Part shown: positions 47,136 through 64,000 of the stretch, piece by piece
How positions within the stretch are numbered: position 1 is the first letter of the stretch
Layout of the letters: each line of letters opens with the position of its first letter
Source of the DNA: an uncultured beta proteobacterium
GTDB taxonomy: Bacteria; Pseudomonadota; Gammaproteobacteria; Burkholderiales; Burkholderiaceae_C
Direction of reading: 5' to 3'
Length of the DNA stretch: 64,000 nt
NCBI GenBank assembly: GCA_903839085.1
Contig: CAIMBE010000126.1
Location: 4,014 to 68,013 of the forward strand
Notes under the pieces: generated by a model
The model's input: only the letters and a program-made list of their open reading frames with translations
What the model was told of the DNA's origin: nothing
The model's database searches: none
Made by a program: the position numbers and the translations under genes

Positions 47136-47162
47136 AGGTGATGTGTATTTTCTTGCTTTGTT

Positions 47163-49711: not shown

Positions 49712-49715
49712 GCCC

Positions 49716-50603
49716 ATGCAAGCGCTATGGATGATCCTGGGGTCCTTCTTTTTTGCCACCATGGCGGTGGGGATCAAGATTGCCTCGCGCGAATTCGGCA
49801 CTTTTGAGCTGGTTTTTTATCGCGGCGTTGTCAGCGTGATTTTCATCGCGCTGGTGTTGCGTTCGCGCGGCATGTCGCTCAAGACCCCGGTGCCGATGAT
49901 GCACGCCTGGCGCAGCGTGGTCGGGGTGCTGTCGCTGGCGGCCTGGTTTTACGCCATTGCCCATTTGCCTCTGGCGACCGCGATGACGCTGAACTACATG
50001 AGCGGCGTCTGGGTCGCGGCCTTCATTGTCGGCGGCGCCGTGCTCTATGGCAGTACCGAACGCCAGGGGCCGCTGATGGCCACGGTGCTCGGCGGTTTTG
50101 GCGGCGTTGTGATGCTGTTGCGCCCGACGCTGGAACAGAACCAGCTGTTCGCCGGCCTGATCGGCCTGCTCTCGGGCATCGGCGCGGCCCTGGCCTACAT
50201 GCAGGTCACCGCGCTCGGCAAGGCGGGCGAGCCCGACGGACGCACGGTGTTCTATTTTTCGCTCGGCTCGGCCCTCGCCGGCTTGCTGGGCATCGCCTTC
50301 AGCGGGCTGACGTCCTGGGCCTCGGTGAGCTGGCAGTCGGTCGCCTGGCTGGTGCCGATCGGCATTCTGGCTTCGCTGGGCCAATGGTGCATGACCCGCG
50401 CCTACAGCCGGGGCTCGACCCTGCTGGTGGCCAACCTGCAGTACTCGGGCATCGTCTTCTCGGCCTTTTACAGCCTGCTCCTGTTTGGCGACAGCGTGCC
50501 GCTGATCGGCTGGGCCGGCATCGCGCTGATTGTGGCCAGCGGTCTGACCGCCACCGTGCTGCGCACGCGCATCCTGCCCGACACGCCGGCAGAAGTACAC
50601 TAA
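49716..50603 (+). CDS. DMT-superfamily (EamA-like) transporter
   Basis: A ten-helix hydrophobic protein. The track ORF (49518) is trimmed by 66 codons to ATG 49716 (MQALWMILGSFFFATMAV), 5 nt after the Rieske stop. Confidence 0.85.
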   Translation: MQALWMILGSFFFATMAVGIKIASREFGTFELVFYRGVVSVIFIALVLRSRGMSLKTPVPMMHAWRSVVGVLSLAAWFYAIAHLPLATAMTLNYMSGVWVAAFIVGGAVLYGSTERQGPLMATVLGGFGGVVMLLRPTLEQNQLFAGLIGLLSGIGAALAYMQVTALGKAGEPDGRTVFYFSLGSALAGLLGIAFSGLTSWASVSWQSVAWLVPIGILASLGQWCMTRAYSRGSTLLVANLQYSGIVFSAFYSLLLFGDSVPLIGWAGIALIVASGLTATVLRTRILPDTPAEVH

Positions 50604-50644
50604 CGCGCTTACTGTCAAAGGCCTCCGGCAAGAAAGTTCATCGC

Positions 50645-51505
50645 ATGTATACAACCCTGATCTCAGCGCAACAACTCCGCGGCCTGCAAGACGCCGGTGC
50701 GCCCTGCATGGTGTTTGATTGCAGTTTTGAGCTGATGCAGGCTGGCGCCGGCGATCAGCAGTACGAGCAGTCGCACATCCCCGGCGCCGTGCGGGCCGAT
50801 CTGGAGCGCCACCTGAGCGCCGCCAAAACGGCAAGCGACGCGGCATCGGGCGGGCGTCATCCCCTGCCCTCGCGCGAATCGTTTGCGGCCTGGCTTGGCA
50901 GCATCGGCTTTGGCAACCACATGCAGGCCGTTGCCTATGACCGCCAGGGCGCCGTTTACGGCGGCCGCCTGTGGTGGATGCTGAAGTGGGTGGGCCACGA
51001 AAACGTGGCCGTGCTCGACGGCGGTCTGCCGGTCTGGTTGGCCAGCGGCGGCGCGGTGGAAAGCGGCCTGTCCGGTGCGCTCGGTACTACCCGTTTTGCG
51101 CTCAGCGAGCCCAGGACCGCCCTGGTGACCACCGACACCGTGGCCCGTAATCTGGGGCGCCCGCAGCAAAGCCTGATCGATGCGCGCGGCGCACCCCGTT
51201 TCAAGGGTGAGGTGGAACCGCTGGACCCGGTCGCCGGACACATCCCCGGCGCGCTGAACCGCCCGTTCAGCCTGAACTTCGACGCGTCAGGCAGGTTCAA
51301 GCCGGCGTCCGAGTTGAAGGCCGAATTTGCATCACTGCTGGCCCTGCGCGACCCGGCCACAGTGGTCCACCACTGCGGCAGCGGCGTCAGCGCCGTGCCC
51401 AATATCATCGCCATGGAACTGGCCGGCCTGGGGCGCACTGCCCTCTATGCCGGCAGTTGGAGCGAGTGGTGCAGCGACCCTGCGCGCCCGGTGGCACAAG
51501 GTTAA
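50645..51505 (+). CDS. sseA: 3-mercaptopyruvate/thiosulfate sulfurtransferase (tandem rhodanese)
   Basis: Two rhodanese domains with the active-site loop HCGSGVSA. The track ORF (50384) is trimmed by 87 codons to ATG 50645. Confidence 0.88.
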   Translation: MYTTLISAQQLRGLQDAGAPCMVFDCSFELMQAGAGDQQYEQSHIPGAVRADLERHLSAAKTASDAASGGRHPLPSRESFAAWLGSIGFGNHMQAVAYDRQGAVYGGRLWWMLKWVGHENVAVLDGGLPVWLASGGAVESGLSGALGTTRFALSEPRTALVTTDTVARNLGRPQQSLIDARGAPRFKGEVEPLDPVAGHIPGALNRPFSLNFDASGRFKPASELKAEFASLLALRDPATVVHHCGSGVSAVPNIIAMELAGLGRTALYAGSWSEWCSDPARPVAQG

Positions 51506-52797
51506 ACAGTGCCAAATTTGGTATCGAACTGGATACCAATCTTCTGGAGCAGCGGCGTGGGGAGCAAGCCACCGGCACAGACAATGACGGCATCGTTGCG
51601 GTACTGCTGCGTCTTGCCATCAAATTCAATCTCAACCTGCTTGTCGTGAATCTGCTTCACTTTTGAATTGAGCATGACCCGCAAACGCCCAGCCAACTGC
51701 TGCTGCTCCAGCAGCGCGCGGTTCTTCTGCTTCACGCGCGAAAACGCGGCGCTACGATATGACAGGATGACATCCGTTTTGTCCTGTTGCGACAGGGCGA
51801 TGGCAGCTTCGAGCGCGCTGTCGCCGCCACCGACCACCAGTACCGCCTGGCCCTTGAATTGGGCCGGATCGACCAGCCGGTACATCACCTTGGGTGCCTC
51901 TTCACCCGGCACATCGAGTTTGCGCGGTGTGCCGCGCCGCCCCATGGACAGCAACACGGCGCGCGCGGTGTAACTGCCCTTGTTGGTGTTCACGCGAAAC
52001 ACCTCGCCGGTCTTTTCAATCAATTCCATGCGTTCATGAAAGCTGATTTCCAGCCCCGTCTTTTTAACCACGTCCTGCCAGAATTCGAGCAATTTTTCCT
52101 TCTGCACTTCGGCAAATTGCATTTTGCCGATGATGGCCAGTTCCACCGGCGCCGTCATGGCGATTTTCTGCCGTGGATAGTGGTAGACCGAGCCACCCAG
52201 CGAGTCCTCCTGCTCCACGATCTTGTAGCGCAACTTGTGTTCGATGGCCGACAGCCCCGCCGAAATGCCGGCCGGTCCGCAACCGACAATCAGCACATCG
52301 AAGTCCGCGCTCGCGCTACCCGACTTCGTCTTGCGGATCGCGTTCATCGCCTGGCGCCCCTGCTCGGCCGCCTTGCGAATCAGGCCCATGCCACCCAATT
52401 CTCCGGCGATGAAGATGCCGGGCACATTGGTCTCAAAGTTCTGACTGATATTGGGAATGTCGATGCCGCGCTTTTCGGTTCCGAACACCAGCTTGATGGC
52501 TTCAACCGGACAGGCATCGAGACAAGCCCCATGCCCGATGCAATGCGCCGCGTTGATCAGGACCGCCTTGCCGTTGACGACGCCCAGCGCGCTCTCGGGA
52601 CAGGCCTTGGTGCAGGCGCCTGAACCCATGCAGCGTGCCAAGTCAACTACCGGGTGCAGGGACGGCGGCTCCGCCAGGCCGCTCTCGATCGACTCGTGCA
52701 ATTGATGGGTGTGCGCCGTGTTGATGCGGCGGTGGCGCCGCAGGTAAAAGGCCAGGATCAAGCCGATAGCCAGCAAATACAGATACAGGTAATTCAT
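51502..52797 (-). CDS. membrane-anchored NAD(P)/FAD-dependent oxidoreductase with an N-terminal ferredoxin-like Fe-S domain
   Basis: N-terminal TM MNYLYLYLLAIGLILAFYLRRHRR. Two ferredoxin-like motifs CMGSGACTKACP and CIGHGACLDACP follow. Dinucleotide motifs are DVLIVGCGPAG and VLVVGGGDSALE. Start trimmed to ATG 52797. Confidence 0.85.
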   Translation of the reverse strand: MNYLYLYLLAIGLILAFYLRRHRRINTAHTHQLHESIESGLAEPPSLHPVVDLARCMGSGACTKACPESALGVVNGKAVLINAAHCIGHGACLDACPVEAIKLVFGTEKRGIDIPNISQNFETNVPGIFIAGELGGMGLIRKAAEQGRQAMNAIRKTKSGSASADFDVLIVGCGPAGISAGLSAIEHKLRYKIVEQEDSLGGSVYHYPRQKIAMTAPVELAIIGKMQFAEVQKEKLLEFWQDVVKKTGLEISFHERMELIEKTGEVFRVNTNKGSYTARAVLLSMGRRGTPRKLDVPGEEAPKVMYRLVDPAQFKGQAVLVVGGGDSALEAAIALSQQDKTDVILSYRSAAFSRVKQKNRALLEQQQLAGRLRVMLNSKVKQIHDKQVEIEFDGKTQQYRNDAVIVCAGGLLPTPLLQKIGIQFDTKFGTV

Positions 52798-52909
52798 GGG
52801 CTCACAGACAAAGCAAATAGCACCCACGGTGCCACAGCCCTAACCTTACACTGATTTTCTTACCATTTGGAAATCGAAGCTCGCGCCTGATCTGTCCCGA
52901 CTCTGCGAC

Positions 52910-53704
52910 TCAGGGCTGGCGCTTTGAGGCGCCAGCTGTCGCTGGGGCCGCTTGCCGCGCCTGCGCCAGGCTGGACTGAATCTGCTGCGCAAACAGGTTG
53001 TCAGGCCCGCCCATGGCCACGACCTGATCCCAGTACTTGACGGCGGCCGCGTAGTCCTTGCGCTCAAAGGCATCACTGCCGGCGATTGCCAGAGCCTTGA
53101 CGTTGCGTGGGTCAAGCGTAAGCGCGCGCGCAATCAGTTTCATCGGCTCACCGGTCAAAACCCGATTGTTCTTGACCGCCAACGCGTCGGCGTAGTCGGC
53201 GAGCAGGCCGGCGTCGCCCTTGCTCAGTTCGAACGCTTTGGCATAGGCTGCCACCGCCTCATCGGCGCGTCCCAGCGCACCATAGGAGCGCGCCAGCATG
53301 GCCCAACCCGCAGCGTCACCGGGCTTTTCCTTCAGCCGCGCCGCCAGTTTGCCGATCATGCTGCCCATCTGGTCGGAGGCAGCCGCATGCGGCGGCGTGG
53401 CACCCAGCGCGTGGGGAACGCTGGTTTTGGAACCAGCAGCAACGCCGTTGGACGCCGAGCGCTTGACCCCATAAACAACCGCGGCCACGATCAGCAACAC
53501 GATGACCAGAGCCGCCAGCCATTGCCACGCCGGCCGCCGGGGTGATGATGCCGGCGCGGGTGGCTCAGCCATCACGCAATCGAGGATGCTGCGCTCGTGC
53601 TGCGCCTTTTGCAGTTCGTACGACTCAATGCTGAGCGAGCCGGAGGCGCGCGCTTCGTCTAGTTGCAGCAGTTGATTCCTGAGAGCGCCTAAGTCGTGAT
53701 CCAT
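52910..53704 (-). CDS. CcmI/NrfG-like TPR protein (single TM, periplasmic TPR domain); putative apocytochrome chaperone
   Basis: TM WLAALVIVLLIVAAVVYGV, then TPR repeats (GWAMLARSYGALGRADEAVAAYAKAFEL, LDPRNVKALAIAGSDAFERKDYAAAVKYWDQVV) closely resembling CcmI/CycH C-terminal domains. I use start ATG 53704; ATG 53728 is also possible. Confidence 0.72.
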   Translation of the reverse strand: MDHDLGALRNQLLQLDEARASGSLSIESYELQKAQHERSILDCVMAEPPAPASSPRRPAWQWLAALVIVLLIVAAVVYGVKRSASNGVAAGSKTSVPHALGATPPHAAASDQMGSMIGKLAARLKEKPGDAAGWAMLARSYGALGRADEAVAAYAKAFELSKGDAGLLADYADALAVKNNRVLTGEPMKLIARALTLDPRNVKALAIAGSDAFERKDYAAAVKYWDQVVAMGGPDNLFAQQIQSSLAQARQAAPATAGASKRQP

Positions 53705-53730
53705 GGGTACTGTGATGCATGTTGACATTT

Positions 53731-55503
53731 TCAATGTTTGATCTGTTTCCAGCTTTCGCTCACGTGGCATTGCTGGCAGCGCGCGCCAAAACGCCCCTGA
53801 TGCGGGTCGCTGCTGCGGTGACAAGCGTAACAGGTCGCTGGCAGTGCGGCGGCGGCCTTGCCGGCCGGCGCCGGATCGCGATGGCAACTGACACAGGCCA
53901 CCGGTCGGTGCGCGCCTTCCAGCCGAAACTTGGTGCCTGTGTCATGGTCAAAGTCCCACAGCTTCCAGGCACGCGCGTTGTGGCAGCTTTCGCAACGCGG
54001 CCCCAGCGTCTGCTTGTGCTTGTCTTCCTTCAGATGGCAGGCCGTGCAGTCGCGCCGCGCATCCCGAAAACGCGTCGTTTCATGGCAGTTCTTGCAGGTG
54101 GCCACGCCGTGGCGCCCGTTGAGCGCAAAGCGGGCGCGGTTGTGATCGAAGCGCTCGACCTTCCAATTCAAATCGGAGTGACAGGCACCGCATTTCGGGC
54201 CAAGCTGGTCTTCATGTTTATCATCCTTCTTGTGGCAGCCCAGGCACTCTATCGAGGTGTTGCGCAAACTCTTGACGTCCTTGTGGCAGGAATCGCATTT
54301 GACCTTCGCTCCCCTGTGCGCGTTTTGCAGGCGAAAGCTGGTCTTGTCGTGGTCAAAGCGCGTGGCCTTCCAGTCGTTCGCGGTATGACAGTCGGCGCAT
54401 TTTTCACCGAGGTTGGCCGCGTGTTTATCATCCTTTTTGTGGCAGGCGTAGCACTCCTTGCTCGCCTGCTTGAACAGGCTGCCTTCGTGGCATGCCTTGC
54501 ACTCGGTCTTGACGTGTTTTCCCAGCAGCGGGAAAGCCGACTTGTCATGGTCAAAGCCGGGGGACTCCTTCCATGATTTTTCATTGTGGCACTTGGCACA
54601 GTCGCGCCCCAGACTGTCCTTGTGCTTGTCGTCCTTGCTGTGGCAGGCGTAGCACTCGCGGCTGGTCTTGACCTTGTAGAGATCAGCGGTATGACAGGCC
54701 GTGCACTTTGCGCTGTGGTGCTTGCCGTTCAGGACATACTTGGTATCAAGATCGTGGTTGAAGTGGGAGCTCTTCCAGGCTTTGTCGCCATGGCACGTGT
54801 CACACTTTTCACCAAATTGACCCTTGTGACCTTTCTGCTCGTCGTCCTTGCGGTGGCAGGCCAGACAGGCCTTGGGCGTGTCCTTGTATACGCCCTTCAA
54901 ATGGCAGGCCTCGCACTTTGTGTCAACGTGTTTGCCGCTCAGAGCGAATTTTGTTTTGCCATGGTCAAACCGGTATTCCTTCCAGTTCGTTGCATCGTGA
55001 CAGTCGGCGCAAGCGTTACTCAAAGCGCCCTTGTGCTTGTCGTCCTTGCGATGGCAGGCCACGCATGTGTCGGGCGCCTGTCGATACAGTTTGCCGGCAA
55101 GATGGCACTTCTCGCACTCCACTTTCTGATGCTTGGCCTTCAGCGGGTAATCGGTAATGGCGTGGTCAAACGCCTGCTTGTCCATCGCGTACAGCCGCAT
55201 GTCGCGCCCCTGGTGCTCGGTGTGGCATTGGCGACACTCCTGCGGTTTCATTTTTCCGTGGTGGCCGGTATGGGCGCTGACGTCAGCACGCGTCTCCTTG
55301 TGGCAATCCAGGCAAAGCCGGCTTTGTTCCTGGCGCTTGAACCGCACATGGCACTTCGCGCAGTCTTCCTCGTATTTGGCGTGGGCCTGCGACAGTTTTC
55401 CCGGTGCAATGACCGACTCGATACCCTGGGCCATGGCCCAGGGCGTGGCAAGCACGAGGCCAAGCAGAGCAACACAGCGCCAGATCCGGCCAATAGAAAG
55501 CAT
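53731..55503 (-). CDS. 24-haem c-type cytochrome (eight tandem trihaem c7/c3-like modules)
   Basis: Sec signal ...ATPWAMA-QG. I counted 24 CXXCH motifs in 590 aa. GAGGACGG lies upstream of the ATG. Confidence 0.95.
   Translation of the reverse strand: MLSIGRIWRCVALLGLVLATPWAMAQGIESVIAPGKLSQAHAKYEEDCAKCHVRFKRQEQSRLCLDCHKETRADVSAHTGHHGKMKPQECRQCHTEHQGRDMRLYAMDKQAFDHAITDYPLKAKHQKVECEKCHLAGKLYRQAPDTCVACHRKDDKHKGALSNACADCHDATNWKEYRFDHGKTKFALSGKHVDTKCEACHLKGVYKDTPKACLACHRKDDEQKGHKGQFGEKCDTCHGDKAWKSSHFNHDLDTKYVLNGKHHSAKCTACHTADLYKVKTSRECYACHSKDDKHKDSLGRDCAKCHNEKSWKESPGFDHDKSAFPLLGKHVKTECKACHEGSLFKQASKECYACHKKDDKHAANLGEKCADCHTANDWKATRFDHDKTSFRLQNAHRGAKVKCDSCHKDVKSLRNTSIECLGCHKKDDKHEDQLGPKCGACHSDLNWKVERFDHNRARFALNGRHGVATCKNCHETTRFRDARRDCTACHLKEDKHKQTLGPRCESCHNARAWKLWDFDHDTGTKFRLEGAHRPVACVSCHRDPAPAGKAAAALPATCYACHRSSDPHQGRFGARCQQCHVSESWKQIKH
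53734..55401 (-). repeat. eight tandem ~66-70-aa coding modules inside the cytochrome gene
   Basis: The recurring unit is FDH-x-K-x-F-x-L-x-GKH-x4-CxxCH-x10-14-CxxCH-x-KDDxH-x5-6-CxxCH-x5-W-x4-FDH. Each unit has three CXXCH motifs plus three extra His residues. Confidence 0.85.
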
Positions 55504-55518
55504 GGTGTTGGTCCGTCC

Positions 55519-56418
55519 TCAGTAGGCGTGCACTGCAAAAATATGAACGAAGGTACTGATCACCAGCATGAAAACAAAAGGAATATGAGCGATATGCCAA
55601 GCCGAGAGCATCCAGGTGTAGGCACCGAACTGAGCCACCCGGACTTCGGCATTGAGGTAGCGCATCACCAGTTTGCGCGCCAGTCTGCGATGCTCGCGAA
55701 CCTTGTCGGCATTCCACTGCAGATGCTTGGCCAGCCGTGCTGAAGGTTCGCGCAACAATCGCGTGCAACGCCAGTAAACCAGCCACTGCACGATCGGCAA
55801 GACAAACACCCGGCGCATATAGGTGCGCCAGCCCGGCACGGCCGCGCGTTCGCGCTGTGCGAAATCGAGCAGTGTCTTCTCAACCTCACGCGCAAAACTC
55901 AGGCGCGAACGAACGCCCTCCTGCTCCAGACCGGCGCGCGCCTTGAGGTCCTGCAAACTCCCGATCTCACCATGCAAACCCCGGTTCACACGCATGTAAA
56001 TGAAGCGGCCGGCAACACCGCTGAGCGCAACAATGATCATGCTCCCGAGCGCCACGCCAGCGTTGATGGATCCAAACCGGAAACCGGAATGCACCAGAAT
56101 CAAAAGTGGCCCGCCGATACCCAGCACCATGTGCAACACAAGCCACATCCTGACAGGGCCCCAGTTGCGCGCGAAGCGGAAATGTTTGCGCAGAGGATAG
56201 CTGAACAGGATCAGCATCATGACGGCGCCGGCCACGCCAAGCCAGTAACCGAGGTCGTCCCTGGGCTTGAACAGCTTGAGCAGACTGATCTGGCGCGCAA
56301 CCCATACCAGGAAGGTCAGTGCGGCATAGACCATGAGGTCCTTGGAAAGCTCGGGCACATAACGCGCCGTTGTGGTGTCACCCGAACTGACATCTGATGC
56401 GTTGGAATTCAAGTTCAA
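55519..56418 (-). CDS. integral membrane protein with two H-x13-H helices; candidate dihaem b-type cytochrome subunit
   Basis: About five TM helices. LHMVLGIGGPLLILVH and HIPFVFMLVISTFVH each place two His residues 13 residues apart. The track start is a TTG overlapping the upstream stop (TTGA); ATG 56334 is an alternative. Confidence 0.7.
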   Translation of the reverse strand: MNLNSNASDVSSGDTTTARYVPELSKDLMVYAALTFLVWVARQISLLKLFKPRDDLGYWLGVAGAVMMLILFSYPLRKHFRFARNWGPVRMWLVLHMVLGIGGPLLILVHSGFRFGSINAGVALGSMIIVALSGVAGRFIYMRVNRGLHGEIGSLQDLKARAGLEQEGVRSRLSFAREVEKTLLDFAQRERAAVPGWRTYMRRVFVLPIVQWLVYWRCTRLLREPSARLAKHLQWNADKVREHRRLARKLVMRYLNAEVRVAQFGAYTWMLSAWHIAHIPFVFMLVISTFVHIFAVHAY

Positions 56419-58697: not shown

Positions 58698-58739
58698 AAA
58701 TACACCATTTGAAAATACATCATCTGCACACGCCACGCA

Positions 58740-60206
58740 TCAAAAGGAATACCAGGGACTGGTAGAAAATATGGGATCCCTGGCAGCCAGATCCCAGATT
58801 GACAAACTCACCCGTCTCCCATAGAAGAACGGTAGGCCCCAGGAAAAGGACGCCGCGCTGCCGTCCGAAGCCGCCGGGGCGCCCGCCATGCCCGCCAGTG
58901 CCGTGATCGACTGCGCCAGGGTACCGGCGTTGCCGACAGTGAAAAAAACCTTGGCCGCGTTCTGTCCCGGTCGGTCGCCGTCCGATACGGTCGCTGATTT
59001 CGACAAGGCGCTGAGCGGGCAATACCAGGAAGCCTCCCCCGCTGCAACCGCCGCACACCTTGCGATCGCGCTGTCGCTGAAGAACAAACCGTTGGTGCCG
59101 GTGTCGAGATAACTGTTGTAAATTGTGTTGCCGTTGTACTGGGTTGTGACACTGAGGTAAGAGTCGAATCCGTGCGTTGACAAGCTGTTCTGCCAGTCCA
59201 CGCCCAATTGAATCCGGTTCGCACCCGCGGCCAACTGGTTGCTGATGCTTCGCTTGCTGGCGTCAGTGCTGCGGGTATTGATGCCAAAAATAAGTTCCCC
59301 GTTGACTTTGGCAGCACCAGTCTCGGGAAGTGCCGGCAGCACCAGCACGACGCCATTGTTGTCAGCCAGATTGTTGTTGTTCGGGTCCTTGCCCAGTGCA
59401 GCGACCGGATTGAAAACCTGCAGGTTGGCGGCGACGGCAGCCGGCGTGCATTGAAGCGCGCTGCTGGCCGCTGGCGGACAGCTGTAGTACTGCACATAGG
59501 AGTTGACATAGTGCTTGTCAAGGCACAAGGCGCCGCAGTCCAGTGTGACGCTGCCGATGCCAAGGATGCCGTTAGAGCCGAGCGCGCTGACTGAACTCAG
59601 CACCTGGCCATTGACCGCGTTAAAACAGTCCAGCGGCGCCTGCACCGCAGCACCGGGATCGTCCTGGATCAGTTGCAGCGGAAGTGCGCTCGCCCACTGC
59701 TCGCCAAGTCCGACATCGGCCACTGCCGTCGGGCCCCACAGGCCACCCACCACAAAGGGGTAGCACTCGTGCGCCTGACCCGCCACACCCGCGGTGCCGG
59801 CACTGGATGAGAGCTCAACCGGAACCAGTCCGAGCGCAGCGACCTTGCTCGCCAGAATGCGCAGTCCAACCGAGCCGGTATCGACCTGCACGTGATCAAT
59901 CGTCGCGCATTTGGTGCTCGGACCATCAGTCGGTCGGGCACCGGGGGCACAGACCGTCACGTTGGCGTACAGAACATTGGTCGGCATCGCAAACAGATGG
60001 GCGGGCCCGCTGTCCACCGTCACTTCCATGTTGTTGACCTTTTGCACGAAAGGAGCACCAACCGTCGGACCGGTGACGGAACAATCGGGCGATGCGCTGC
60101 AGCGCAGGGTCGTCACGCTCGAATCACCGCCACCGCAGGCTGCCAAGCAAGCGAGGCAGATTGCCCAGGCAAGCGGAAAGTCAAACCGGCACAGCACGGT
60201 CTTCAC
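58740..60206 (-). CDS. lipoprotein with pepsin-like (two-DTG) aspartic-peptidase signature; probably the family annotated as DUF3443
   Basis: Lipobox in LAWAICLACLAAC-GGG. Ordered motifs are VQVDTGSVGL, NGILGIGS, NGELIFGI and YLDTGTNGLFF. The GTG start at 60206 overlaps the upstream stop (GTGA); track start 60437 is trimmed by 77 codons. Confidence 0.78.
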   Translation of the reverse strand: MKTVLCRFDFPLAWAICLACLAACGGGDSSVTTLRCSASPDCSVTGPTVGAPFVQKVNNMEVTVDSGPAHLFAMPTNVLYANVTVCAPGARPTDGPSTKCATIDHVQVDTGSVGLRILASKVAALGLVPVELSSSAGTAGVAGQAHECYPFVVGGLWGPTAVADVGLGEQWASALPLQLIQDDPGAAVQAPLDCFNAVNGQVLSSVSALGSNGILGIGSVTLDCGALCLDKHYVNSYVQYYSCPPAASSALQCTPAAVAANLQVFNPVAALGKDPNNNNLADNNGVVLVLPALPETGAAKVNGELIFGINTRSTDASKRSISNQLAAGANRIQLGVDWQNSLSTHGFDSYLSVTTQYNGNTIYNSYLDTGTNGLFFSDSAIARCAAVAAGEASWYCPLSALSKSATVSDGDRPGQNAAKVFFTVGNAGTLAQSITALAGMAGAPAASDGSAASFSWGLPFFYGRRVSLSIWDLAARDPIFSTSPWYSF

Positions 60207-60649
60207 TCCAGACCTATTTGCTCTGGATTGACGCCGCGCGGCAGCATGGAGCGGCGAAAAGCAAAGCCGGAAAACACGTGCAGATACGCGCTCGATTGGA
60301 GCACCAGATCGAGATCGTCGTGCTGAAAATACCGTTGCACGCCAGTGCGTTGTGCAGCGACCCGCGCTGCCGCTGAGTAGCCCGGATACGAGGTTCCCAG
60401 CAGAGCCGAGAGGTCGGGCTTGTACAGGGTGCGCCAACTCACAGCAAAGACCATGCCGCTGCTTGAGACATATTGCCGAAAGCGTGAGCCATCGGCACTC
60501 TGGAACTCGTGCAGCGAATACTGCGCGCCGGGCATGACCCGATGCTGTGCCGCCATGCGTTTATGCTCGACATTGTTCGAATCAAGATCCTGTCCGAGGC
60601 CGGCAAAAGAATGCACCGGTCCGAGCAAGAGCGCCAGCGCCACTATCAT
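60203..60649 (-). CDS. small secreted protein (148 aa), probably the DUF2844 family
   Basis: Signal peptide MIVALALLLGPVHSFA-GL. The track ORF (to 61291) is trimmed by 214 codons, because its upstream part is the Arg/Pro/Thr/Gln-rich antisense of the CPBP gene. Confidence 0.7.
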   Translation of the reverse strand: MIVALALLLGPVHSFAGLGQDLDSNNVEHKRMAAQHRVMPGAQYSLHEFQSADGSRFRQYVSSSGMVFAVSWRTLYKPDLSALLGTSYPGYSAAARVAAQRTGVQRYFQHDDLDLVLQSSAYLHVFSGFAFRRSMLPRGVNPEQIGLE

Positions 60650-60658
60650 GCGCAAACA

Positions 60659-61099
60659 ATGACACCCTTGATGCAGCCAGTTTACCGGCCCATGTTCGCT
60701 GCCTACGGCCTGGTCTTCGCTTGCGGACCGGTTGGTGCCTGGCTCGCTCTGCACAGTGGCATCGGTCTTGGCGCCGCATCCTGCACCCCAACTGCCCTGC
60801 TCACCCTGCTGCTGATCGCGCCGATCGCTGAAGAAACCGTGTTTCGACTGGGCCTGCACAACTTCTTGCTCAACCGGTTTCAGATGTGTTGGGGCGCGCT
60901 CAGCCTGGCCAATGCTCTGGTCGCCGTGGTATTTTCTGCCCTTCACGCCCTGCACCAGGGTTCGATCAGAATGCTGCTCACCGCTGTACCCGCGTTGCTG
61001 CTCGGTTGGCTGTGGGAACGCAGCGGACGCCGCTTGCAGGTACCGAGCGGGTTTCATGCCTGGTTCAACCTGTGCCTGGCGCTGGTCAGTTGCCGGTAG
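60659..61099 (+). CDS. mini CPBP-family (CAAX-protease-like) glutamic intramembrane endopeptidase
   Basis: All three CPBP motifs occur in order: PIAEETVFR (EExxxR), FSALHAL (FxxxH) and HAWFN (HxxxN). They are embedded in hydrophobic helices. Start is ATG 60659; 60671 and 60692 are alternatives. Confidence 0.8.
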   Translation: MTPLMQPVYRPMFAAYGLVFACGPVGAWLALHSGIGLGAASCTPTALLTLLLIAPIAEETVFRLGLHNFLLNRFQMCWGALSLANALVAVVFSALHALHQGSIRMLLTAVPALLLGWLWERSGRRLQVPSGFHAWFNLCLALVSCR

Positions 61100-61106
61100 A
61101 CCGCCA

Positions 61107-63974
61107 TCAGTAGAAGTCATAGCGGTAGCCAAGGTAGAAGAATACGGCCGAAGAATCCTCGTGGTTGGTCGGTCCGTCGGTCGTGGAGTGCTCGTAAATG
61201 GTCTCACCCAGCAAGCTGGCGCGATCCGAGATCTTGTAGGAGAGCCGCACGCCCGGAGACACGCGCGACACCTTGGTTGCGGTGTTGTCAATCTGCGAAT
61301 AGATGCGTAGTGAGGGCTCGAAGCTCGCCTTGTTATCTAGAAAACCGGTTAGGTTGTTGTAAGCCATTTGCGTTCCGCGCAATGTGTCGCTGTGCATGAC
61401 GCTAAGGTTGAAGCCGTTGATGTCGCGGTTTGAATATAGATTGGAACCAGTCAACTGTATGGAGACGTTGTACTGGGCACCGGTTGCGGGCATGGCTTGG
61501 AAGTCGCCGACGGCGGGTAAGGCCCCAACATCGCTATAACGCAGATCAAGCGTGCCCTGCCACTTCGGCGCCAGTGCGCGCGAAACACTGAACAGTGCCT
61601 GGCGCGCCAGCGCCGCCGTGCCCAAGGCCATTTCCTTGACCTCGGCCAGACTCTTGAGTTGTAACAATGTCTTGAGCGAGGTCGTACCTGAGCTGATCAG
61701 GGCGTCGCTCAATTGAAGCGAAGGCGCCTTGCGGCTGTCAAGCAGCAAGGTGATCGTGGTGCCCAGCGGCCCCTGCACCGATCCCTGCATGGTGGCAGCA
61801 TTGAGGGTGCGGAAGTTGAGGTCGTAATCAAGTTGCGAGTACATCGACAGCGAGTCGCCAAAATAACGCAATTCAAAACCCGCCGCCCGGCGGTCCGAAA
61901 TACCCTCAGACTTCTGGTCCACCAGCGAAATATTGCCGCCCCAGTGATCAAACAGGTTGTCGGCCTCCAGCACCAGGCCCGCCAGTCGCTGTGATGGCGC
62001 TGACACCAGCGTATTGGCCGGTGCGCCGGCCATGGCATCAAGCCTGAACTTTCCGCCAACCGGCATCATCAGCGAGACACCGTCAAACAAGCCAAACAAG
62101 GAACCACCGATCGCCGCCTGGCGCCCGAACCGCACGTCGAGTTGCGGATCGCGGAAACGGTAATCCACATAGACCGCACTCAGGCCGCTTTGCGTATTGG
62201 TCGAAGTGATGAAGTTCTTGGAATAGGTGTCACGCAGGACAAGCTTGGTTTCCGAGTTCTCCGACTTGTAGCGCCCGGAGAGGTCAACGCTGGTCACTAG
62301 CGTTGATTGGTTGGTGCGGCTCAGCGTGCTCTGGTCAATTCCAGCGGCAATGTTGACCAGCGAATCGGTCTTCGAGCGCCCGCCATAGTAATACTGCGAA
62401 ACACTGCCCGAGGAAATCAGGCCGCCCTGCCCTGACGCTGCATCGGGCTTGTCCGTTGTTTTGGCGCCGCTGGCGATGGGAGCGCCCAGCGCGTCAAGAC
62501 GCTGCGCCACACGCAGCGCCGCCTCACCCTGGGGATAGAGCCGAAGGTACAACTGGTACTCGATGCGGGCCTTCTCGTTCTGTTTCAGACCCTCCCAGGC
62601 GGCGCCAATCAATTCCTGGGCCTGCTGTGATGCCCGATTGGGTGGCAGCAGCAAAGTTTGGTTGAAAGCCACCACGGCATCCTGCCAACGCTGCTGGCTC
62701 AGGGCAAACTGCCCCCTGTGAAGCAATTCAGCGGCCTGGCCGTTGACCTTGGCAACGGACTCGTTGTCAGGCAGCACCGCGTCAGCCGGGGCCTGCACTA
62801 CAGCCAAGGCGACCGGCGGCATCGCCGGGCTAGGCGGCGGTGCCGTACTTGCGACGACGACGGGGCTGGGCGCGACAGTCACAGCGGTTGTCGGCGTCAG
62901 CGACGCCAGAGGAACAACACTGGCCATCGGGAAACTACCTGCGGCCCTGTCTCGCACTGTCTGGGCCTCCTCCAGCGTGCGGAAATACCCCATTGCCAGC
63001 GCCAAGCGCTGGTCACCGTCCTGTTCGAGCTTGCGCGTGAAGACCGTATAGTCTTGAAACTGCGCCGCCACACGCGGCATTTTGGCCGCATCGTCGAGCG
63101 CAAAAGTCTGTAACAACACCACATAGCGCCGCTCATCGGGCACGGCAGCCATCGCTGCGAGCCCCGCGGGTGGCGGCGCAACCGGGCCTCTACCACCCGA
63201 CGCGAGTGGCGTCGGCGCCAGTTGCCCGTTCTGGAGGACGCTGGCCAAGGGGAATCGATCCGCCGCGCGGTCCCGCACCGTTTGCGCCTCGGCCTGTGTC
63301 CGAAAATAACCCATGACCAGCGCAAAGCGCTGCCGACCATCCTGTTCGATCTTGCGAGTGAAAACCGCGTAGTCCTGAAATTGCGCTGCCACGCGCGGCA
63401 TTTCTGCGGCCTCATCGATCGCAAAAGTCTGCAGCACCACGACATAACTCCTCTCATCGGGCCGGATCGCCATGGCCGGTAGCGGCTTGTCCGGTACCAA
63501 TGCCCCCCCTGCGCCATCAGCACCGACAAACGCAAGATCAATGGCGTGTGCCCCGGGTCCCTGGCGCGCCAGAACCCGGACCTTGTTGGTAAAGCGCAAA
63601 GACAGCGACTGGGTGAACAGTCTTGTTTGTGGAACATAGCTCAGGGCTATGCCCACCTTGCCGGCACTGCGCTCCAGGCGCTTGCTCTCTTCAACCGATT
63701 GCCCTGCCACGACCTCATCGGCCACAACAATCTGAAACCCCAGTTGCACCAGATCGGTCGGCGCCAGTGGTGACTGCCGCAGAAAACGCACGTTGGCGTT
63801 GAAGGTAATACGGGCTACCGCTGGCCTTGCGCCTTCAATCCATTGCAGACTTTCGATCGTCTGCGCCGACACCCCAGCGCAAAACAATGGCGAGCAGACC
63901 AAGCAGGCCCATAGCCGCAATGTTGCCGAACCCATTAAAACCACCCAAAAAGCGCGCGCCCGCACCGCCCACAC
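61107..63974 (-). CDS. outer-membrane protein: signal peptide, N-terminal domain, two SPOR-like domains, Pro/Ala linker, TPR segment, C-terminal ~440-aa beta-barrel
   Basis: The C-terminus YLGYRYDFY is a typical OMP terminal signature. An alternating-polarity beta-strand pattern runs through the last ~440 aa. The duplicated DER-YVV-LQTFA ... GYF-T--EAQTVRDRAA modules are SPOR-like. The start is GTG 63974 or ATG 63935. Confidence 0.85.
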   Translation of the reverse strand: MWAVRARAFWVVLMGSATLRLWACLVCSPLFCAGVSAQTIESLQWIEGARPAVARITFNANVRFLRQSPLAPTDLVQLGFQIVVADEVVAGQSVEESKRLERSAGKVGIALSYVPQTRLFTQSLSLRFTNKVRVLARQGPGAHAIDLAFVGADGAGGALVPDKPLPAMAIRPDERSYVVVLQTFAIDEAAEMPRVAAQFQDYAVFTRKIEQDGRQRFALVMGYFRTQAEAQTVRDRAADRFPLASVLQNGQLAPTPLASGGRGPVAPPPAGLAAMAAVPDERRYVVLLQTFALDDAAKMPRVAAQFQDYTVFTRKLEQDGDQRLALAMGYFRTLEEAQTVRDRAAGSFPMASVVPLASLTPTTAVTVAPSPVVVASTAPPPSPAMPPVALAVVQAPADAVLPDNESVAKVNGQAAELLHRGQFALSQQRWQDAVVAFNQTLLLPPNRASQQAQELIGAAWEGLKQNEKARIEYQLYLRLYPQGEAALRVAQRLDALGAPIASGAKTTDKPDAASGQGGLISSGSVSQYYYGGRSKTDSLVNIAAGIDQSTLSRTNQSTLVTSVDLSGRYKSENSETKLVLRDTYSKNFITSTNTQSGLSAVYVDYRFRDPQLDVRFGRQAAIGGSLFGLFDGVSLMMPVGGKFRLDAMAGAPANTLVSAPSQRLAGLVLEADNLFDHWGGNISLVDQKSEGISDRRAAGFELRYFGDSLSMYSQLDYDLNFRTLNAATMQGSVQGPLGTTITLLLDSRKAPSLQLSDALISSGTTSLKTLLQLKSLAEVKEMALGTAALARQALFSVSRALAPKWQGTLDLRYSDVGALPAVGDFQAMPATGAQYNVSIQLTGSNLYSNRDINGFNLSVMHSDTLRGTQMAYNNLTGFLDNKASFEPSLRIYSQIDNTATKVSRVSPGVRLSYKISDRASLLGETIYEHSTTDGPTNHEDSSAVFFYLGYRYDFY
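62913..63473 (-). repeat. tandem duplication (period 321 nt / 107 aa) encoding the two SPOR-like domains
   Basis: PDERSYVVVLQTFAIDEAAEMPRVAAQFQDYAVFTRKIEQDGRQRFALVMGYFRTQAEAQTVRDRAADRFPLASV aligns without gaps to PDERRYVVLLQTFALDDAAKMPRVAAQFQDYTVFTRKLEQDGDQRLALAMGYFRTLEEAQTVRDRAAGSFPMASV. The DNA copies are visibly similar. Confidence 0.75.
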
Positions 63975-64000
63975 CGACCAAAAAGGGCGGTGCGGACTTC

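What the first reader, a model, noticed from the sequence alone, without database searches (positions are those of the whole stretch)
51502..63974. Compact envelope gene cluster with the parts list of a trans-envelope redox conduit, in an arrangement I do not recognise
From 63974 down to 51502 every gene except one is on the minus strand, with junctions of -4 to +112 nt. The order is: OM SPOR/TPR/beta-barrel protein; small DUF2844-like protein; pepsin-like lipoprotein (GTGA stop/start overlap). Next come the BNR beta-propeller with a C-terminal sorting tag (42-nt gap) and the 4-His membrane protein (TTGA overlap). The 24-haem cytochrome c follows (15-nt gap), then the CcmI/NrfG-like TPR protein (26-nt gap) and the membrane-anchored Fe-S flavoprotein (112-nt gap). 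A mini CPBP protease is inserted antisense. Together this gives a cytoplasmic-side NAD(P)H/FAD/Fe-S enzyme, a b-type membrane subunit, a very long periplasmic haem chain, a dedicated haem-attachment helper, an OM barrel and a surface-sorted propeller. That is what an extracellular or periplasm-spanning electron-transfer system would need. However, I see no MtrA/MtrC-like decahaem pair and no Cyc2-like fused porin-cytochrome, and the barrel protein carries peptidoglycan-binding-type and TPR modules instead. The functional link between the protease/propeller half and the cytochrome half rests only on gene packing.
Basis: partly seen in the sequence, partly recalled or inferred. Interest (0 to 1): 0.8.

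Follow-up and report, generated by a model that had tools for sequence, protein, structure and literature searches.

The report
Envelope-spanning cytochrome conduit gene cluster
This is a bacterial gene cluster of the predicted but never tested "PCC3" type, thought to wire electrons from the inner membrane to the cell surface, here carrying extra surface-protein genes and leftovers of a cytochrome-assembly operon that suggest testable ideas about how PCC3 works.

Summary

It is not an unrecognised arrangement. The membrane protein E, the 24-haem cytochrome F and the outer-membrane protein A are the inner-membrane protein, periplasmic cytochrome and porin of the PCC3 porin-cytochrome cluster (He et al. 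2017). The "missing" outer cytochrome is a window-edge artefact. Contigs 99.97-100% identical to the window show a gene with at least 20 haem motifs directly upstream of A, ending about 36 nt past position 64000.

The propeller D carries a JDVT-CTERM sorting tag, and the antisense CPBP gene is its cognate protease MrtJ (Haft 2023).

DUF2844, DUF3443 and the propeller stay beside the outer cytochrome-porin pair in three different gene arrangements, so the two "halves" are linked by more than packing.

The TPR protein G and the Fe-S flavoprotein H are the tail of a ccm cytochrome-maturation operon that commonly flanks PCC3. H is also the immediate divergent neighbour of the PCC3 membrane protein in 33 of 45 metagenomic loci.

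Verdict: a new variant of a known, untested kind. The accessory links and the flavoprotein association seem undescribed. Interest is moderate.

The parts
61107..63974 (-). A: PCC3-type outer-membrane porin. It has a weak TPR segment and a duplicated SPOR-like N-terminal unit of about 100 aa. Start uncertain: 63935, 63974 or beyond the window.
   Evidence: Residues 433-955 are 32% identical (E 3e-74) to the porin of canonical PCC3 locus L044. A is 52-60% identical to the porins of L086, L090 and L081. Pfam gives only sub-threshold TPR and SPOR hits. The barrel fold itself was not modelled.
60692..61099 (+). I: MrtJ, a small CPBP/Rce1-like glutamic intramembrane protease and the predicted sorting enzyme for the JDVT-CTERM tag. 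It lies antisense in the A-B gap. The longest ORF starts at 60509.
   Evidence: NF033192 (MrtJ) scores 70.6 bits, E 1.4e-19, against a cut-off of 75. PF02517 hits at 1.2e-12. The EExxxR, FxxxH and HxxxN motifs are conserved in all 8 related loci. Gene callers place it at 60692-61099.
60203..60649 (-). B: small secreted DUF2844 protein.
   Evidence: PF11005 at 5.7e-25. It always lies directly upstream of DUF3443 in related loci.
58740..60206 (-). C: DUF3443 lipoprotein with two invariant D-T-G motifs (pepsin-type catalytic signature).
   Evidence: PF11925 at 1e-84. The lipobox Cys21, DTGS at 106-109 and DTG at 365-367 are invariant in 21 homologues. There is no Pfam Asp-family hit and no PDB sequence hit.
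56415..58697 (-). D: tandem beta-propeller protein with a signal peptide and a JDVT-CTERM sorting tag. The tag is the last ~41 codons, 56418-56540.
   Evidence: NF033191 (JDVT-CTERM) scores 29.7 bits against a cut-off of 27. Cys723 and Asp732-Pro733 (+9) are invariant in 16 homologues. The AF2 model has pLDDT 76 and pTM 0.70 and is all-beta. Best PDB fold matches are GH74 (TM 0.62) and PorZ (TM 0.54).
55519..56412 (-). E: PCC3 inner-membrane protein with 5 transmembrane helices, a putative di-haem b carrier.
   Evidence: W92x3H96x13H110, S133GxxG137 and W274x3H278x13H292 are invariant in 26 homologues. These are the motifs that define the PCC3 inner-membrane protein. Hydropathy gives five transmembrane helices and an Arg/Lys-rich loop at 143-268. 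It is adjacent to a 21-27-haem cytochrome in 79 of 80 genome loci.
53731..55503 (-). F: periplasmic 24-haem cytochrome c made of 8 c7-type trihaem modules.
   Evidence: It has 24 CxxCH motifs in 8 groups of 3. PF14522 (Cytochrome_C7) hits at 1.1e-29 in 7 stretches. It has a signal peptide.
52910..53704 (-). G: membrane-anchored CcmI-like TPR protein, an apocytochrome chaperone of the System I haem lyase. It is shortened and lacks the Ig_CycH domain.
   Evidence: PF23914 scores 83.8 bits against a cut-off of 42. TIGR03142 (CcmI) scores 30.9 against a cut-off of 29.3. G aligns to residues 1-262 of the 409-aa CcmI of L090. It occupies the position after ccmH in full operons.
51502..52827 (-). H: N-terminally anchored cytoplasmic flavoprotein with an atypical two-cluster ferredoxin domain and a TrxR/FNR-type FAD/NAD(P)H domain.
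   Evidence: Pyr_redox_3 at 4.8e-43, plus Fer4 families. Nearest PDB relatives are YpdA/Bdr and TrxR-type FNRs. The motifs CxxSxxCxxxCP and CIGHGACxxxCP are conserved in 23 homologues. A transmembrane helix followed by RRHRR places the domain in the cytoplasm.
63975..64000 (-). Leader of A. The extracellular multihaem cytochrome gene of the cluster ends about 36 nt beyond the window.
   Evidence: L084 and L085 are 99.97-100% identical to window 46415-64000 and extend 2412 nt further. There they carry a 5'-partial ORF of at least 791 aa with 20 CxxCH motifs. The same holds in L001-3, L005, L007, L081-83 and L174.

Best explanation
The region is a complete PCC3-type porin-cytochrome cluster of a freshwater Comamonadaceae-like betaproteobacterium. 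It is a rearranged, augmented subtype.

**Gene order (transcription direction)**
1. Extracellular multihaem cytochrome, just off the window.
2. Porin A.
3. MrtJ, antisense.
4. DUF2844 (B).
5. DUF3443 lipoprotein (C).
6. JDVT-CTERM tandem propeller (D).
7. Inner-membrane protein E.
8. 24-haem periplasmic cytochrome F.
9. CcmI-like protein G.
10. Fe-S flavoprotein H.

**Proposed working (inferred, not shown)**
- E holds two b-type haems across the inner membrane.
- F, a chain of eight trihaem modules, bridges the periplasm.
- F meets the extracellular cytochrome inside porin A.
- I commit to H as the cytoplasmic partner of E. NAD(P)H would pass electrons to FAD, to two Fe-S clusters, and then to the haems of E. 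This resembles a split NOX/ferric-reductase and makes the system an electron exporter. I put this step at about 0.45.
- G is what remains of a PCC3-dedicated System I ccm operon. It helps load haem onto these very long apocytochromes.
- D is exported by Sec and held by its C-terminal helix. It is probably lipidated on Cys723, cleaved by MrtJ and moved to the cell surface.
- D, the outer-membrane lipoprotein C (a likely aspartic protease) and B serve the outer cytochrome-porin half, in assembly, processing or anchoring.

**Shown versus inferred**
- Shown: homology, motifs and conserved gene neighbourhoods.
- Inferred: all redox steps, the direction of electron flow and the roles of B, C and D.
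For: **PCC3 identity**
- E carries every motif that defines the PCC3 inner-membrane protein.
- E and a 21-27-haem cytochrome are adjacent in 79 of 80 genome loci.
- In the common form they are followed by a second cytochrome of 9-72 haems and a homologue of A.
- A is 52-60% identical to such porins.
- The outer cytochrome lies upstream of A in contigs identical to the window and in all relatives that extend upstream of A.

**Sorting system**
- NF033191 scores above its cut-off. The Cys and the +9 Asp-Pro are invariant.
- The MrtJ catalytic motifs are conserved.
- The JDVT-CTERM/MrtJ pairing was described by Haft. The related MrtX has been shown experimentally.

**Link between the two halves**
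- The full order is kept in L001-3, L005, L007, L081-83, L089 and L174, while D identity falls to 37-40%.
- DUF2844-DUF3443 directly follow the outer cytochrome-porin pair in 4 of 4 loci without D.
- D-like proteins at 31% identity lie convergent with DUF3443 (L173, L175). L175 also carries DUF2844, a porin and an outer cytochrome.
- The D family has only about 12-16 end-to-end representatives among 1.84 billion.

**ccm link**
- Full ccmABCDEFGH-ccmI-H follows PCC3 in L090 and L174. L088 has ccmC-H then H, without ccmA, ccmB or ccmI. L092 has ccmA-I, but no H follows.
- ccm genes flank PCC3 in many loci.

**H-E link**
- H is the immediate divergent neighbour of E in 33 of 45 metagenomic loci with enough upstream sequence.
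- H stays with PCC3 where no ccm genes are nearby, as in L075, L132 and L171.
Against: - PCC3 itself has never been tested functionally, so the conduit function is a hypothesis resting on a hypothesis.
- E gave no Pfam hit even at E 10. Its AF2 model (pLDDT 74) matched no PDB fold at E below 0.5. The ferric-reductase-like di-haem b idea therefore rests on motif spacing alone.
- H is the last gene of ccm operons in Comamonadaceae and sits beside ccmI and DsbD in L175. It may serve cytochrome maturation rather than feed E.
- PCC3 occurs in known Fe(II) oxidisers, which argues for inward flow to quinones in at least some hosts.
- C has no detectable sequence similarity to pepsins beyond the two DTG motifs.
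- D has no invariant His and no obvious cofactor site.
- MrtJ scores slightly below NCBIfam's cut-off and is not adjacent to D.
- Transcription units are unknown. The terminator scan was not informative: 22 sites against 14.1 +/- 4.3 expected.
Confidence: 0.75

Rival explanations
1. The core is the same PCC3 conduit, but H is not its electron donor. H and G would both be cytochrome c maturation accessories, supplying reductant for haem or for the thiol-reduction branch while very large multihaem apoproteins are made. [quoted passage not shown] Flow would then be inward from Fe(II) or another extracellular donor, or reversible.
For: - H is the terminal gene of ccmABCDEFGH-ccmI-H operons (L090, L174). 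In L088 it follows ccmH directly.
- H lies in a ccmI-H-DsbD run in L175.
- In the metagenomic form H lies between ccmG and the inner-membrane protein gene.
- PCC3 is found in Fe(II) oxidisers and was modelled as quinone-linked.
- The PCC3 inner-membrane protein gene was up-regulated in iron-oxidising Sideroxydans CL21.
Against: - H stays with PCC3 where no ccm genes lie within 8-10 kb (L075, L132, L171).
- H remains in the window although ccmA-H are gone.
- H has no CxxC disulfide centre, so it cannot act as a thioredoxin-type reductase.
- L092 has the full ccm operon with ccmI, and no H follows it.
Confidence: 0.3
2. Two unrelated systems lie side by side. The propeller, DUF3443, DUF2844 and MrtJ genes would form an independent surface module for glycan binding, proteolysis or adhesion. 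It would merely have inserted into a PCC3 operon and have no role in electron transfer.
For: - D's fold matches glycan-binding or glycan-degrading tandem propellers: GH74, the BT4663 sensor and PorZ.
- D has no invariant His or redox motif.
- L004 keeps DUF3443 next to the inner-membrane protein gene with no D between them.
- None of the 80 metagenomic PCC3 loci and most of the genome loci lack B, C and D. PCC3 therefore works without them.
Against: - Every context recovered for D, for D-like proteins and for DUF3443 has DUF3443 and/or an outer cytochrome-porin pair alongside. This covers 14 independent loci and three arrangements, down to 31% identity for D-like and 40% for DUF3443.
- The D family is tiny and was seen nowhere else.
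Confidence: 0.12
3. The cluster is an MtrCAB-, Cyc2- or other characterised porin-cytochrome system that was simply mis-recognised.
For: The general logic is the same: a periplasmic multihaem cytochrome, a porin and an outer cytochrome. F shows a faint Pfam MtrC/MtrF domain hit at 5.8e-08.
Against: - The DmsE/MtrA family model TIGR03508 scores 19.7 against a cut-off of 192.
- F is built of c7-type trihaem modules with 24 haems, not 10.
- Only F in the 64-kb window has 2 or more CxxCH motifs, so A is not a fused cytochrome-porin.
Confidence: 0.02

Closest known systems
PCC3 porin-cytochrome c gene cluster (He et al. 2017, PMC5566968; found in Sideroxydans, Leptothrix and others)
   Same: All four defining components are present. 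E is a ~300-aa inner-membrane protein with five transmembrane helices, SGxxG and two WX3HX13H motifs. The periplasmic cytochrome has 24 haems against a reported 21, 24 or 27. The porin is homologous. A Thr/Ala/Ser/Gly-rich repetitive outer cytochrome has at least 20 haems.
   Different: The order is rearranged: outer cytochrome-porin come first and inner-membrane protein-periplasmic cytochrome last. Four extra genes lie between them (MrtJ, DUF2844, DUF3443, JDVT-CTERM propeller). The porin has an N-terminal extension with two SPOR-like units. The CcmI-like gene and the Fe-S flavoprotein gene follow. None of these extras, nor the ccm link, is mentioned in the PCC3 papers I read.
JDVT-CTERM / MrtJ sorting pair (Haft 2023, bioRxiv 10.1101/2023.06.07.544157) and MYXO-CTERM / myxosortase MrtX (PMC11980579)
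   Same: D has the tripartite tag: one Cys, Asp-Pro nine residues later, a Leu-rich helix and an Arg cluster. There is one client in the locus. A small CPBP protease with conserved catalytic motifs is encoded nearby.
   Different: The protease and its client are separated by two genes instead of being adjacent. The pair is embedded in a porin-cytochrome cluster, a context not listed by Haft, who found only DUF4266, DUF3570 and TlpA neighbours in a few species. MrtJ scores 70.6 bits, just under the cut-off of 75. More distant D-like proteins (L173, L175) have a tag without Cys.
MtrCAB of Shewanella and MtoAB/PioAB
   Same: The design is the same: a periplasmic multihaem wire inserted into an outer-membrane barrel that meets a surface cytochrome. 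In Shewanella the surface partner is a lipoprotein delivered by type II secretion (own knowledge).
   Different: There is no sequence-family membership (TIGR03508 at 19.7 against 192). The haem counts are 24 and at least 20 instead of 10 and 10. The inner-membrane partner is a putative b-type protein rather than the tetrahaem CymA.
NOX / FRE ferric-reductase-domain proteins and bacterial MsrQ (own knowledge; the analogy was drawn by He et al.)
   Same: Two HX13H pairs sit on transmembrane helices 3 and 5, suited to stack two b haems across the membrane. A membrane-attached NAD(P)H/FAD enzyme (H) is encoded next to the gene in most loci.
   Different: The dehydrogenase is a separate TrxR/FNR-type flavoprotein with two atypical Fe-S clusters. 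It is not a fused FNR-like domain. E has no PF01794 hit and no PDB fold match.
Uet cluster of Ca. Tenderia and Gallionella, and OmcZ maturation by the protease OzpA in Geobacter (the latter from own knowledge)
   Same: Non-haem beta-propeller proteins (NHL repeats, UetH/I) and other accessory proteins are encoded with an outer cytochrome and porin. A dedicated protease matures an extracellular cytochrome.
   Different: The propeller family differs (Asp-box tandem propeller with a JDVT-CTERM tag). The protease type differs (putative aspartic lipoprotein against a subtilisin-like enzyme). No processing has been shown here.
Dedicated haem-lyase helpers: NrfEFG of E. coli and CcmI of System I
   Same: G has the CcmH/CycH TPR domain and passes the CcmI domain model. 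In relatives it follows ccmH in a PCC3-linked ccm operon.
   Different: G is shortened to 264 aa and lacks the Ig_CycH domain. It fails the NrfG equivalog model (64.8 against 306). ccmA-H are absent from the window.

Membership tests
PCC3 porin-cytochrome cluster | Inner-membrane protein of about 300 aa with 5 transmembrane helices, SGXXG on helix 4 and WX3HX13H on helices 3 and 5 | tested here: met
   E has W92-H96-H110, S133-G134-x-x-G137 and W274-H278-H292, all invariant in 26 sequences. Hydropathy gives five helices.
PCC3 porin-cytochrome cluster | Adjacent periplasmic multihaem cytochrome with about 21-27 haems | tested here: met
   F has 24 CxxCH motifs and a signal peptide and lies 15 nt after E. 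The reported range is 21, 24 or 27.
PCC3 porin-cytochrome cluster | Outer-membrane beta-barrel porin gene in the cluster | tested here: inconclusive
   A is clearly homologous to the porin-position gene of canonical PCC3 loci: 32% at E 3e-74, and 52-60% to others. The barrel fold of A was not modelled or predicted here.
PCC3 porin-cytochrome cluster | Extracellular multihaem cytochrome gene next to the porin | tested here: met
   It is not inside the window. It is present directly upstream of A in contigs L084 and L085, 99.97-100% identical to the window. The ORF has at least 791 aa and 20 CxxCH motifs and is rich in Thr, Ala, Ser and Gly.
PCC3 porin-cytochrome cluster | Actual trans-envelope electron transfer | not testable with these tools
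   This has not been shown for any PCC3. Recent papers call it functionally unverified.
JDVT-CTERM / MrtJ sorting system | C-terminal tripartite tag with a single Cys, Asp-Pro nine residues later, a hydrophobic helix and an Arg cluster | tested here: met
   NF033191 scores 29.7 against a cut-off of 27. The tag reads GC723SMSIAGEPD732P...RARKRR. C723, D732 and P733 are invariant in 16 homologues.
JDVT-CTERM / MrtJ sorting system | Cognate MrtJ-type CPBP protease encoded nearby | tested here: inconclusive
   MrtJ is the best hit (NF033192, E 1.4e-19), but 70.6 bits is under the cut-off of 75. The catalytic motifs are conserved in 8 loci. It is two genes away from D rather than adjacent, whereas 16 of 17 pairs were adjacent.
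JDVT-CTERM / MrtJ sorting system | Cleavage after a modified Cys, followed by surface display | not testable with these tools
   This has been shown only for the related MrtX and MYXO-CTERM.
Pepsin-like (A1) aspartic peptidases | Two catalytic D-T/S-G motifs in a bilobal protein | tested here: met
   DTGS at 106-109 and DTG at 365-367 are invariant in 21 DUF3443 proteins.
Pepsin-like (A1) aspartic peptidases | Detectable sequence or profile similarity to the family | tested here: not met
   No Pfam Asp or TAXi hit even at E 10. No relevant PDB hit by sequence or by profile. The fold was not modelled. C is therefore not filed as a member, only as possibly working like one.
Ferric-reductase-domain (NOX/FRE/MsrQ) di-haem b proteins | Profile or fold similarity to the FRD transmembrane domain | tested here: not met
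   No Pfam family at E up to 10. Foldseek of the AF2 model (pLDDT 74) against the PDB gave a best E of 0.55. Only the His spacing agrees.
System I CcmI (apocytochrome chaperone) | CcmI/CycH TPR domain and a position at the end of a ccm operon | tested here: met
   PF23914 scores 83.8 against 42 and TIGR03142 scores 30.9 against 29.3. Orthologues follow ccmH in L090, L092 and L174. In the window the other ccm genes are absent.
NrfG (NrfEFG haem lyase subunit) | Equivalog model NF007692 | tested here: not met
   The score is 64.8 bits against a cut-off of 306.
MtrA/DmsE decahaem family | Family model TIGR03508 | tested here: not met
   F scores 19.7 bits against a cut-off of 192.2.
YpdA/Bdr bacillithiol-disulfide reductase | Equivalog model TIGR04018 | tested here: not met
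   H scores 165.5 bits against a cut-off of 339.9. H has an extra transmembrane anchor and a ferredoxin domain. It belongs to the same flavoprotein superfamily only.

The most novel reading that the evidence does not exclude
PCC3 may not be a quinone-linked Fe(II) oxidase. It may instead be an NAD(P)H-fuelled electron exporter. The membrane-anchored Fe-S flavoprotein H and the di-haem protein E would form a split NOX/ferric-reductase-like module. That module would drive electrons through a 24-haem periplasmic wire to giant surface cytochromes. Those surface cytochromes would need their own ccm system. In some lineages they would also need a dedicated outer-membrane kit to be assembled, trimmed or anchored. 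The kit would comprise a pepsin-like lipoprotein, DUF2844 and a lipid-anchored, MrtJ-sorted tandem propeller.
Probability: 0.3. Interest if true: 0.8.

Novelty: new variant of a known kind. Interest (0 to 1): 0.55.

Why it matters
- PCC3 is widespread in iron-cycling and freshwater Proteobacteria. It encodes some of the largest multihaem cytochromes known. Its function, direction and inner-membrane coupling remain untested.
- This locus and its relatives show that PCC3 travels with a dedicated System I ccm operon and with a membrane-anchored NAD(P)H Fe-S flavoprotein. That gives a concrete and cheap biochemical test of what feeds or drains the conduit.
- The variant in the window also places a JDVT-CTERM/MrtJ sorting pair in a defined functional context, apparently for the first time.
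- It gives two families of unknown function, DUF2844 and DUF3443, a specific association with the outer cytochrome-porin pair.
- A practical warning for genome scans: the key outer cytochrome gene is systematically cut by assembly breaks and window edges.

Tried and rejected
1. **Variant lacking an outer cytochrome.** My first reading was a PCC3 without the extracellular cytochrome, with the propeller in its place. I rejected it when L081-L085 and L001-L007 showed a large haem-rich ORF upstream of the porin.
2. **Fold test of E.** The AF2 model (pLDDT 74) gave only noise in Foldseek against the PDB, with long-helix proteins at E of at least 0.55. The ferric-reductase-like fold is therefore unconfirmed.
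3. **Sequence and profile searches of DUF3443.** Searches against the PDB and relaxed Pfam found no pepsin relative.
4. **phmmer of F against the PDB.** No hit at E 1e-3 or better.
5. **Literature.** No paper in the library mentions DUF3443 or DUF2844. The original PCC3 paper says nothing about ccm, propellers or flavoproteins, and the other PCC3 passages I read do not mention them.
6. **Promoter and terminator scan.** Not informative: 3 promoter-like sites against 2.6 expected, and 22 terminator-like sites against 14.1 +/- 4.3 expected.
7. **Tandem-repeat and Rfam scans.** Nothing in the cluster.
8. **MtrCAB, Cyc2 and HmcA membership.** Rejected on model scores.
9. **Mobile island.** Not supported. 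G+C is 58-65%, like the rest of the window. The flanks are core genes: dxs, ispA, xseB and a rhodanese gene.

Full report

Yes. ORF listing and family scans recover the nine genes in the stated order and orientation.
- A: 61107-63974, minus strand.
- B: DUF2844, 60203-60649.
- C: DUF3443, 58740-60206.
- D: 56415-58697.
- E: 55519-56412.
- F: 53731-55503.
- G: 52910-53704.
- H: 51502-52827.
- I: a CPBP gene on the plus strand at 60692-61099. The longest ORF starts at 60509.

F has exactly 24 CxxCH motifs, arranged as eight groups of three. It is the only ORF in the whole 64-kb window with two or more such motifs.

Junctions with gene-caller starts are 5, 42, 2, 15, 26 and 82 nt. The A-B gap of 457 nt holds the antisense gene.

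The SPOR and TPR labels for A are sub-threshold.

The rest of the window is ordinary core chromosome: ligA, dnaG, rpoD and dxs. Its G+C content is similar to that of the cluster.

**2. The core is PCC3.**

E had no Pfam or NCBIfam family, but it has 834 homologues. An alignment of 26 shows three invariant features: W92x3H96x13H110, S133GxxG137 and W274x3H278x13H292. Hydropathy gives five transmembrane helices and a large Arg/Lys-rich loop.

This is exactly how He et al. (2017) define the conserved inner-membrane protein of their predicted "PCC3" porin-cytochrome cluster. That cluster comprises a porin, an extracellular multihaem cytochrome, a periplasmic multihaem cytochrome (median 21 haems) and the inner-membrane protein. 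Later work reports 21, 24 or 27 haems for the periplasmic subunit.

I fetched 80 genomic loci around E homologues. Nearly all come from Comamonadaceae or other Burkholderiales MAGs, including Leptothrix ochracea.
- E and an F-like cytochrome are adjacent in 79 of 80 loci.
- In the common form they are followed by a second cytochrome of 9-72 haems and then a homologue of A.
- A residues 433-955 align to such a porin at 32% identity (E 3e-74). They align to others at 52-60%.

**3. The "missing" outer cytochrome is a window-edge artefact.**

In every relative with sequence upstream of A, a haem-rich ORF cut at its 5' end abuts the porin gene. Metagenome scaffolds L084 and L085 are 99.97-100% identical to window 46415-64000 and run 2412 nt further.

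There they carry an ORF of at least 791 aa with 20 CxxCH and one Cx4CH motif. It is rich in Thr, Ala, Ser and Gly and is internally repeated. It stops about 36 nt beyond the window end. This matches the description of PCC3 extracellular cytochromes.

All public contigs break inside this gene. The cluster is therefore a complete PCC3 with this order:
- outer cytochrome
- porin
- MrtJ (antisense)
- DUF2844
- DUF3443
- propeller
- inner-membrane protein
- 24-haem cytochrome
- CcmI-like protein
- flavoprotein

**4. The propeller and the antisense gene are a sorting pair.**

D passes the NCBIfam JDVT-CTERM model (29.7 bits against a cut-off of 27). The CPBP gene's best hit is the JDVT-CTERM system protease MrtJ (70.6 bits, E 1.4e-19, against a cut-off of 75).

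Haft (2023) described this pair in silico. The tag has a single Cys, a nearly invariant Asp-Pro nine residues later, a Leu-rich helix and an Arg cluster. There is usually one client per genome. D has Cys723 and Asp732-Pro733, invariant in 16 homologues. The EExxxR, FxxxH and HxxxN motifs of MrtJ are conserved in all related loci.

For the related MYXO-CTERM system, cleavage by myxosortase and surface display have been shown experimentally. The proposed route is lipidation of the Cys, cleavage, then type II secretion.

D's AF2 model (pLDDT 76, pTM 0.70) is an all-beta tandem propeller. Its best global matches are GH74 (TM 0.62) and PorZ (TM 0.54). The BT4663-type sensor domains give the best E-values. 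Sequence identity is only 12-14%, and D has no invariant His. D looks like a binding or scaffolding protein, not a redox protein.

**5. Are the two halves linked?**

The full order is kept in L001, L002, L003, L005, L007, L081-83, L089 and L174, while D identity falls to 37-40%.

The D family is tiny. There are 17 clusters in the word-indexed search. A full HMMER scan of 1.84 billion representatives found about 12-16 end-to-end relatives. Every context seen is this cluster.

DUF3443 is a larger family.
- All four contexts sampled at 46-49% identity without D show the outer cytochrome (up to 3371 aa), then the porin, then DUF2844, then DUF3443.
- In L004, DUF3443 is followed directly by the inner-membrane protein gene, with no D. 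The propeller-MrtJ pair is therefore an optional further layer.
- More distant D-like proteins (31% identity, tag without Cys) lie convergent with DUF3443. In L175 the same locus also carries DUF2844, a porin and an outer cytochrome.

The B-C-D set thus tracks the outer-membrane half of PCC3 through three arrangements. That is much stronger evidence than packing in one genome.

C has an invariant lipobox Cys and two invariant D-T-G motifs. It has no detectable similarity to pepsins otherwise. I treat it as a probable aspartic protease lipoprotein, not as a member of family A1.

**6. G and H.**

In L090 and L174 the PCC3 genes are followed by ccmABCDEFGH, then a 409-428-aa CcmI, then an H homologue. 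L088 shows ccmC-H and then H, without ccmA, ccmB or ccmI. L092 has ccmA-I, but no H follows.

Many canonical loci show ccmA onward after the porin before the locus ends. Others show only CcmI-H, or H alone.

The window has no other ccm gene. G corresponds to the first 262 residues of such a CcmI. G and H are therefore the remnant tail of a PCC3-linked System I operon.

A second scan, centred on a distant (Acidiferrobacterales-type) inner-membrane protein, fetched 80 metagenomic loci. The typical layout there is as follows.
- ccmABCDE and ccmG, transcribed rightward.
- H, on the opposite strand.
- The inner-membrane protein gene, the periplasmic cytochrome, the outer cytochrome and the porin, transcribed rightward.
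- ccmI, ccmH and ccmF, on the opposite strand.

H is the immediate divergent neighbour of the inner-membrane protein gene in 33 of 45 loci with at least 1.8 kb upstream. H also stays next to PCC3 where no ccm genes are within reach, as in L075, L132 and L171.

H has several notable features.
- An N-terminal anchor followed by RRHRR, which places the domain in the cytoplasm.
- No Tat motif.
- A ferredoxin domain whose two motifs each lack the second Cys (CxxSxxCxxxCP and CIGHGACxxxCP), conserved in 23 homologues.
- A flavodomain nearest to YpdA/Bdr and TrxR-type ferredoxin-NADP reductases, with no CxxC.

**7. Mechanism**

Shown: homology, motifs and conserved neighbourhoods.

Inferred: E carries two b haems across the membrane, F spans the periplasm, and A houses the junction with the outer cytochrome.

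For the inner end I favour H as donor to E, at about 0.45. The path would run from NAD(P)H to FAD, to the Fe-S clusters, and then to haem b. This would be a split analogue of NOX/FRE and would make PCC3 an electron exporter.

The main rival, at about 0.3, is that H serves cytochrome maturation and E couples to quinones as originally proposed. That would allow Fe(II) oxidation. An uphill, inward route to NAD(P)+ is not plausible.

B, C and D probably assemble, process or anchor the outer cytochrome. The OzpA-OmcZ precedent (own knowledge) and the NHL propellers of the Uet cluster are analogies only.

Weak points:
- E's model matched no PDB fold.
- PCC3 has never been tested functionally.

**8. 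Novelty and verdict**

As far as the library shows, the following appear to be undescribed:
- PCC3 combined with a JDVT-CTERM/MrtJ client.
- The DUF2844/DUF3443 association with the outer cytochrome-porin pair.
- The PCC3-ccm-flavoprotein supercluster.

This is a new variant of a known kind, of moderate interest. It gives direct experimental handles on an untested but widespread predicted conduit.

Noticed in passing
window 52490-52640 (H residues ~63-112): Both ferredoxin motifs of H lack the canonical second Cys: CMGSGACTKACP and CIGHGACLDACP. The Ser (once Gly) and His substitutions recur in all 23 homologues checked. This suggests 3Fe-4S clusters or Ser/His-ligated 4Fe-4S clusters.
   Followed up: partly
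beyond window end (about 64036 onward); L084 2-2377: Every public contig carrying this locus breaks inside the repetitive outer cytochrome gene. Its full length and haem count are therefore unknown. Relatives reach 2498-3371 aa (L088, L090, L092).
   Followed up: partly
window 62900-63914 (A residues ~20-355): A contains an internal duplication of a SPOR-like unit of about 100 aa. Two stretches of A align to the same N-terminal region of the 832-aa porin of L090. The Pfam SPOR hit is only E 0.08.
   Followed up: partly
L004 1-1624: In a close relative (inner-membrane protein 77% identical), DUF3443 is followed directly by the inner-membrane protein gene with no propeller between them. The contig ends before the MrtJ position, so its presence there is unknown.
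   Followed up: partly
genome MAGs CAITXW01 (L002 + L014), CAIRAW01 (L003 + L028), CAIPGC01 (L007 + L023): Three MAGs carry both the augmented PCC3 type and a canonical PCC3 cluster. The window's genome may likewise have a second PCC3 copy, possibly the one that keeps ccmA-H.
   Followed up: no
L173 and L175; proteins P0320, P0332, P0352: Distant D-like propellers end in a GGG-x-x-D-(P/A)-W plus helix plus basic tail, without the Cys. This may be a different, undescribed C-terminal sorting signal. No CPBP gene was called in L175.
   Followed up: no
L175 1968-6524; L092 18615-20413: In L175, ccmI, the H homologue and DsbD lie in a row. In L092 the ccm operon is followed by a glutathione peroxidase gene, a cupredoxin gene and an FTR1 iron permease gene. 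These are possible hints to thiol-redox or iron-uptake links.
   Followed up: no
window 60649-60692 and 61099-61107: mrtJ is wedged antisense. It is 7 nt from the stop of A (convergent) and about 42 nt from the start of B (divergent). Transcription from A into B would run antisense through mrtJ. This layout is conserved in all related loci.
   Followed up: partly
window 22632-22705 (-): A single tRNA gene is the only Rfam match in the window.
   Followed up: no
window 8194-10422 (+): A SulP-family permease is fused to STAS and cyclic-nucleotide-binding domains. It is unrelated to the finding.
   Followed up: no
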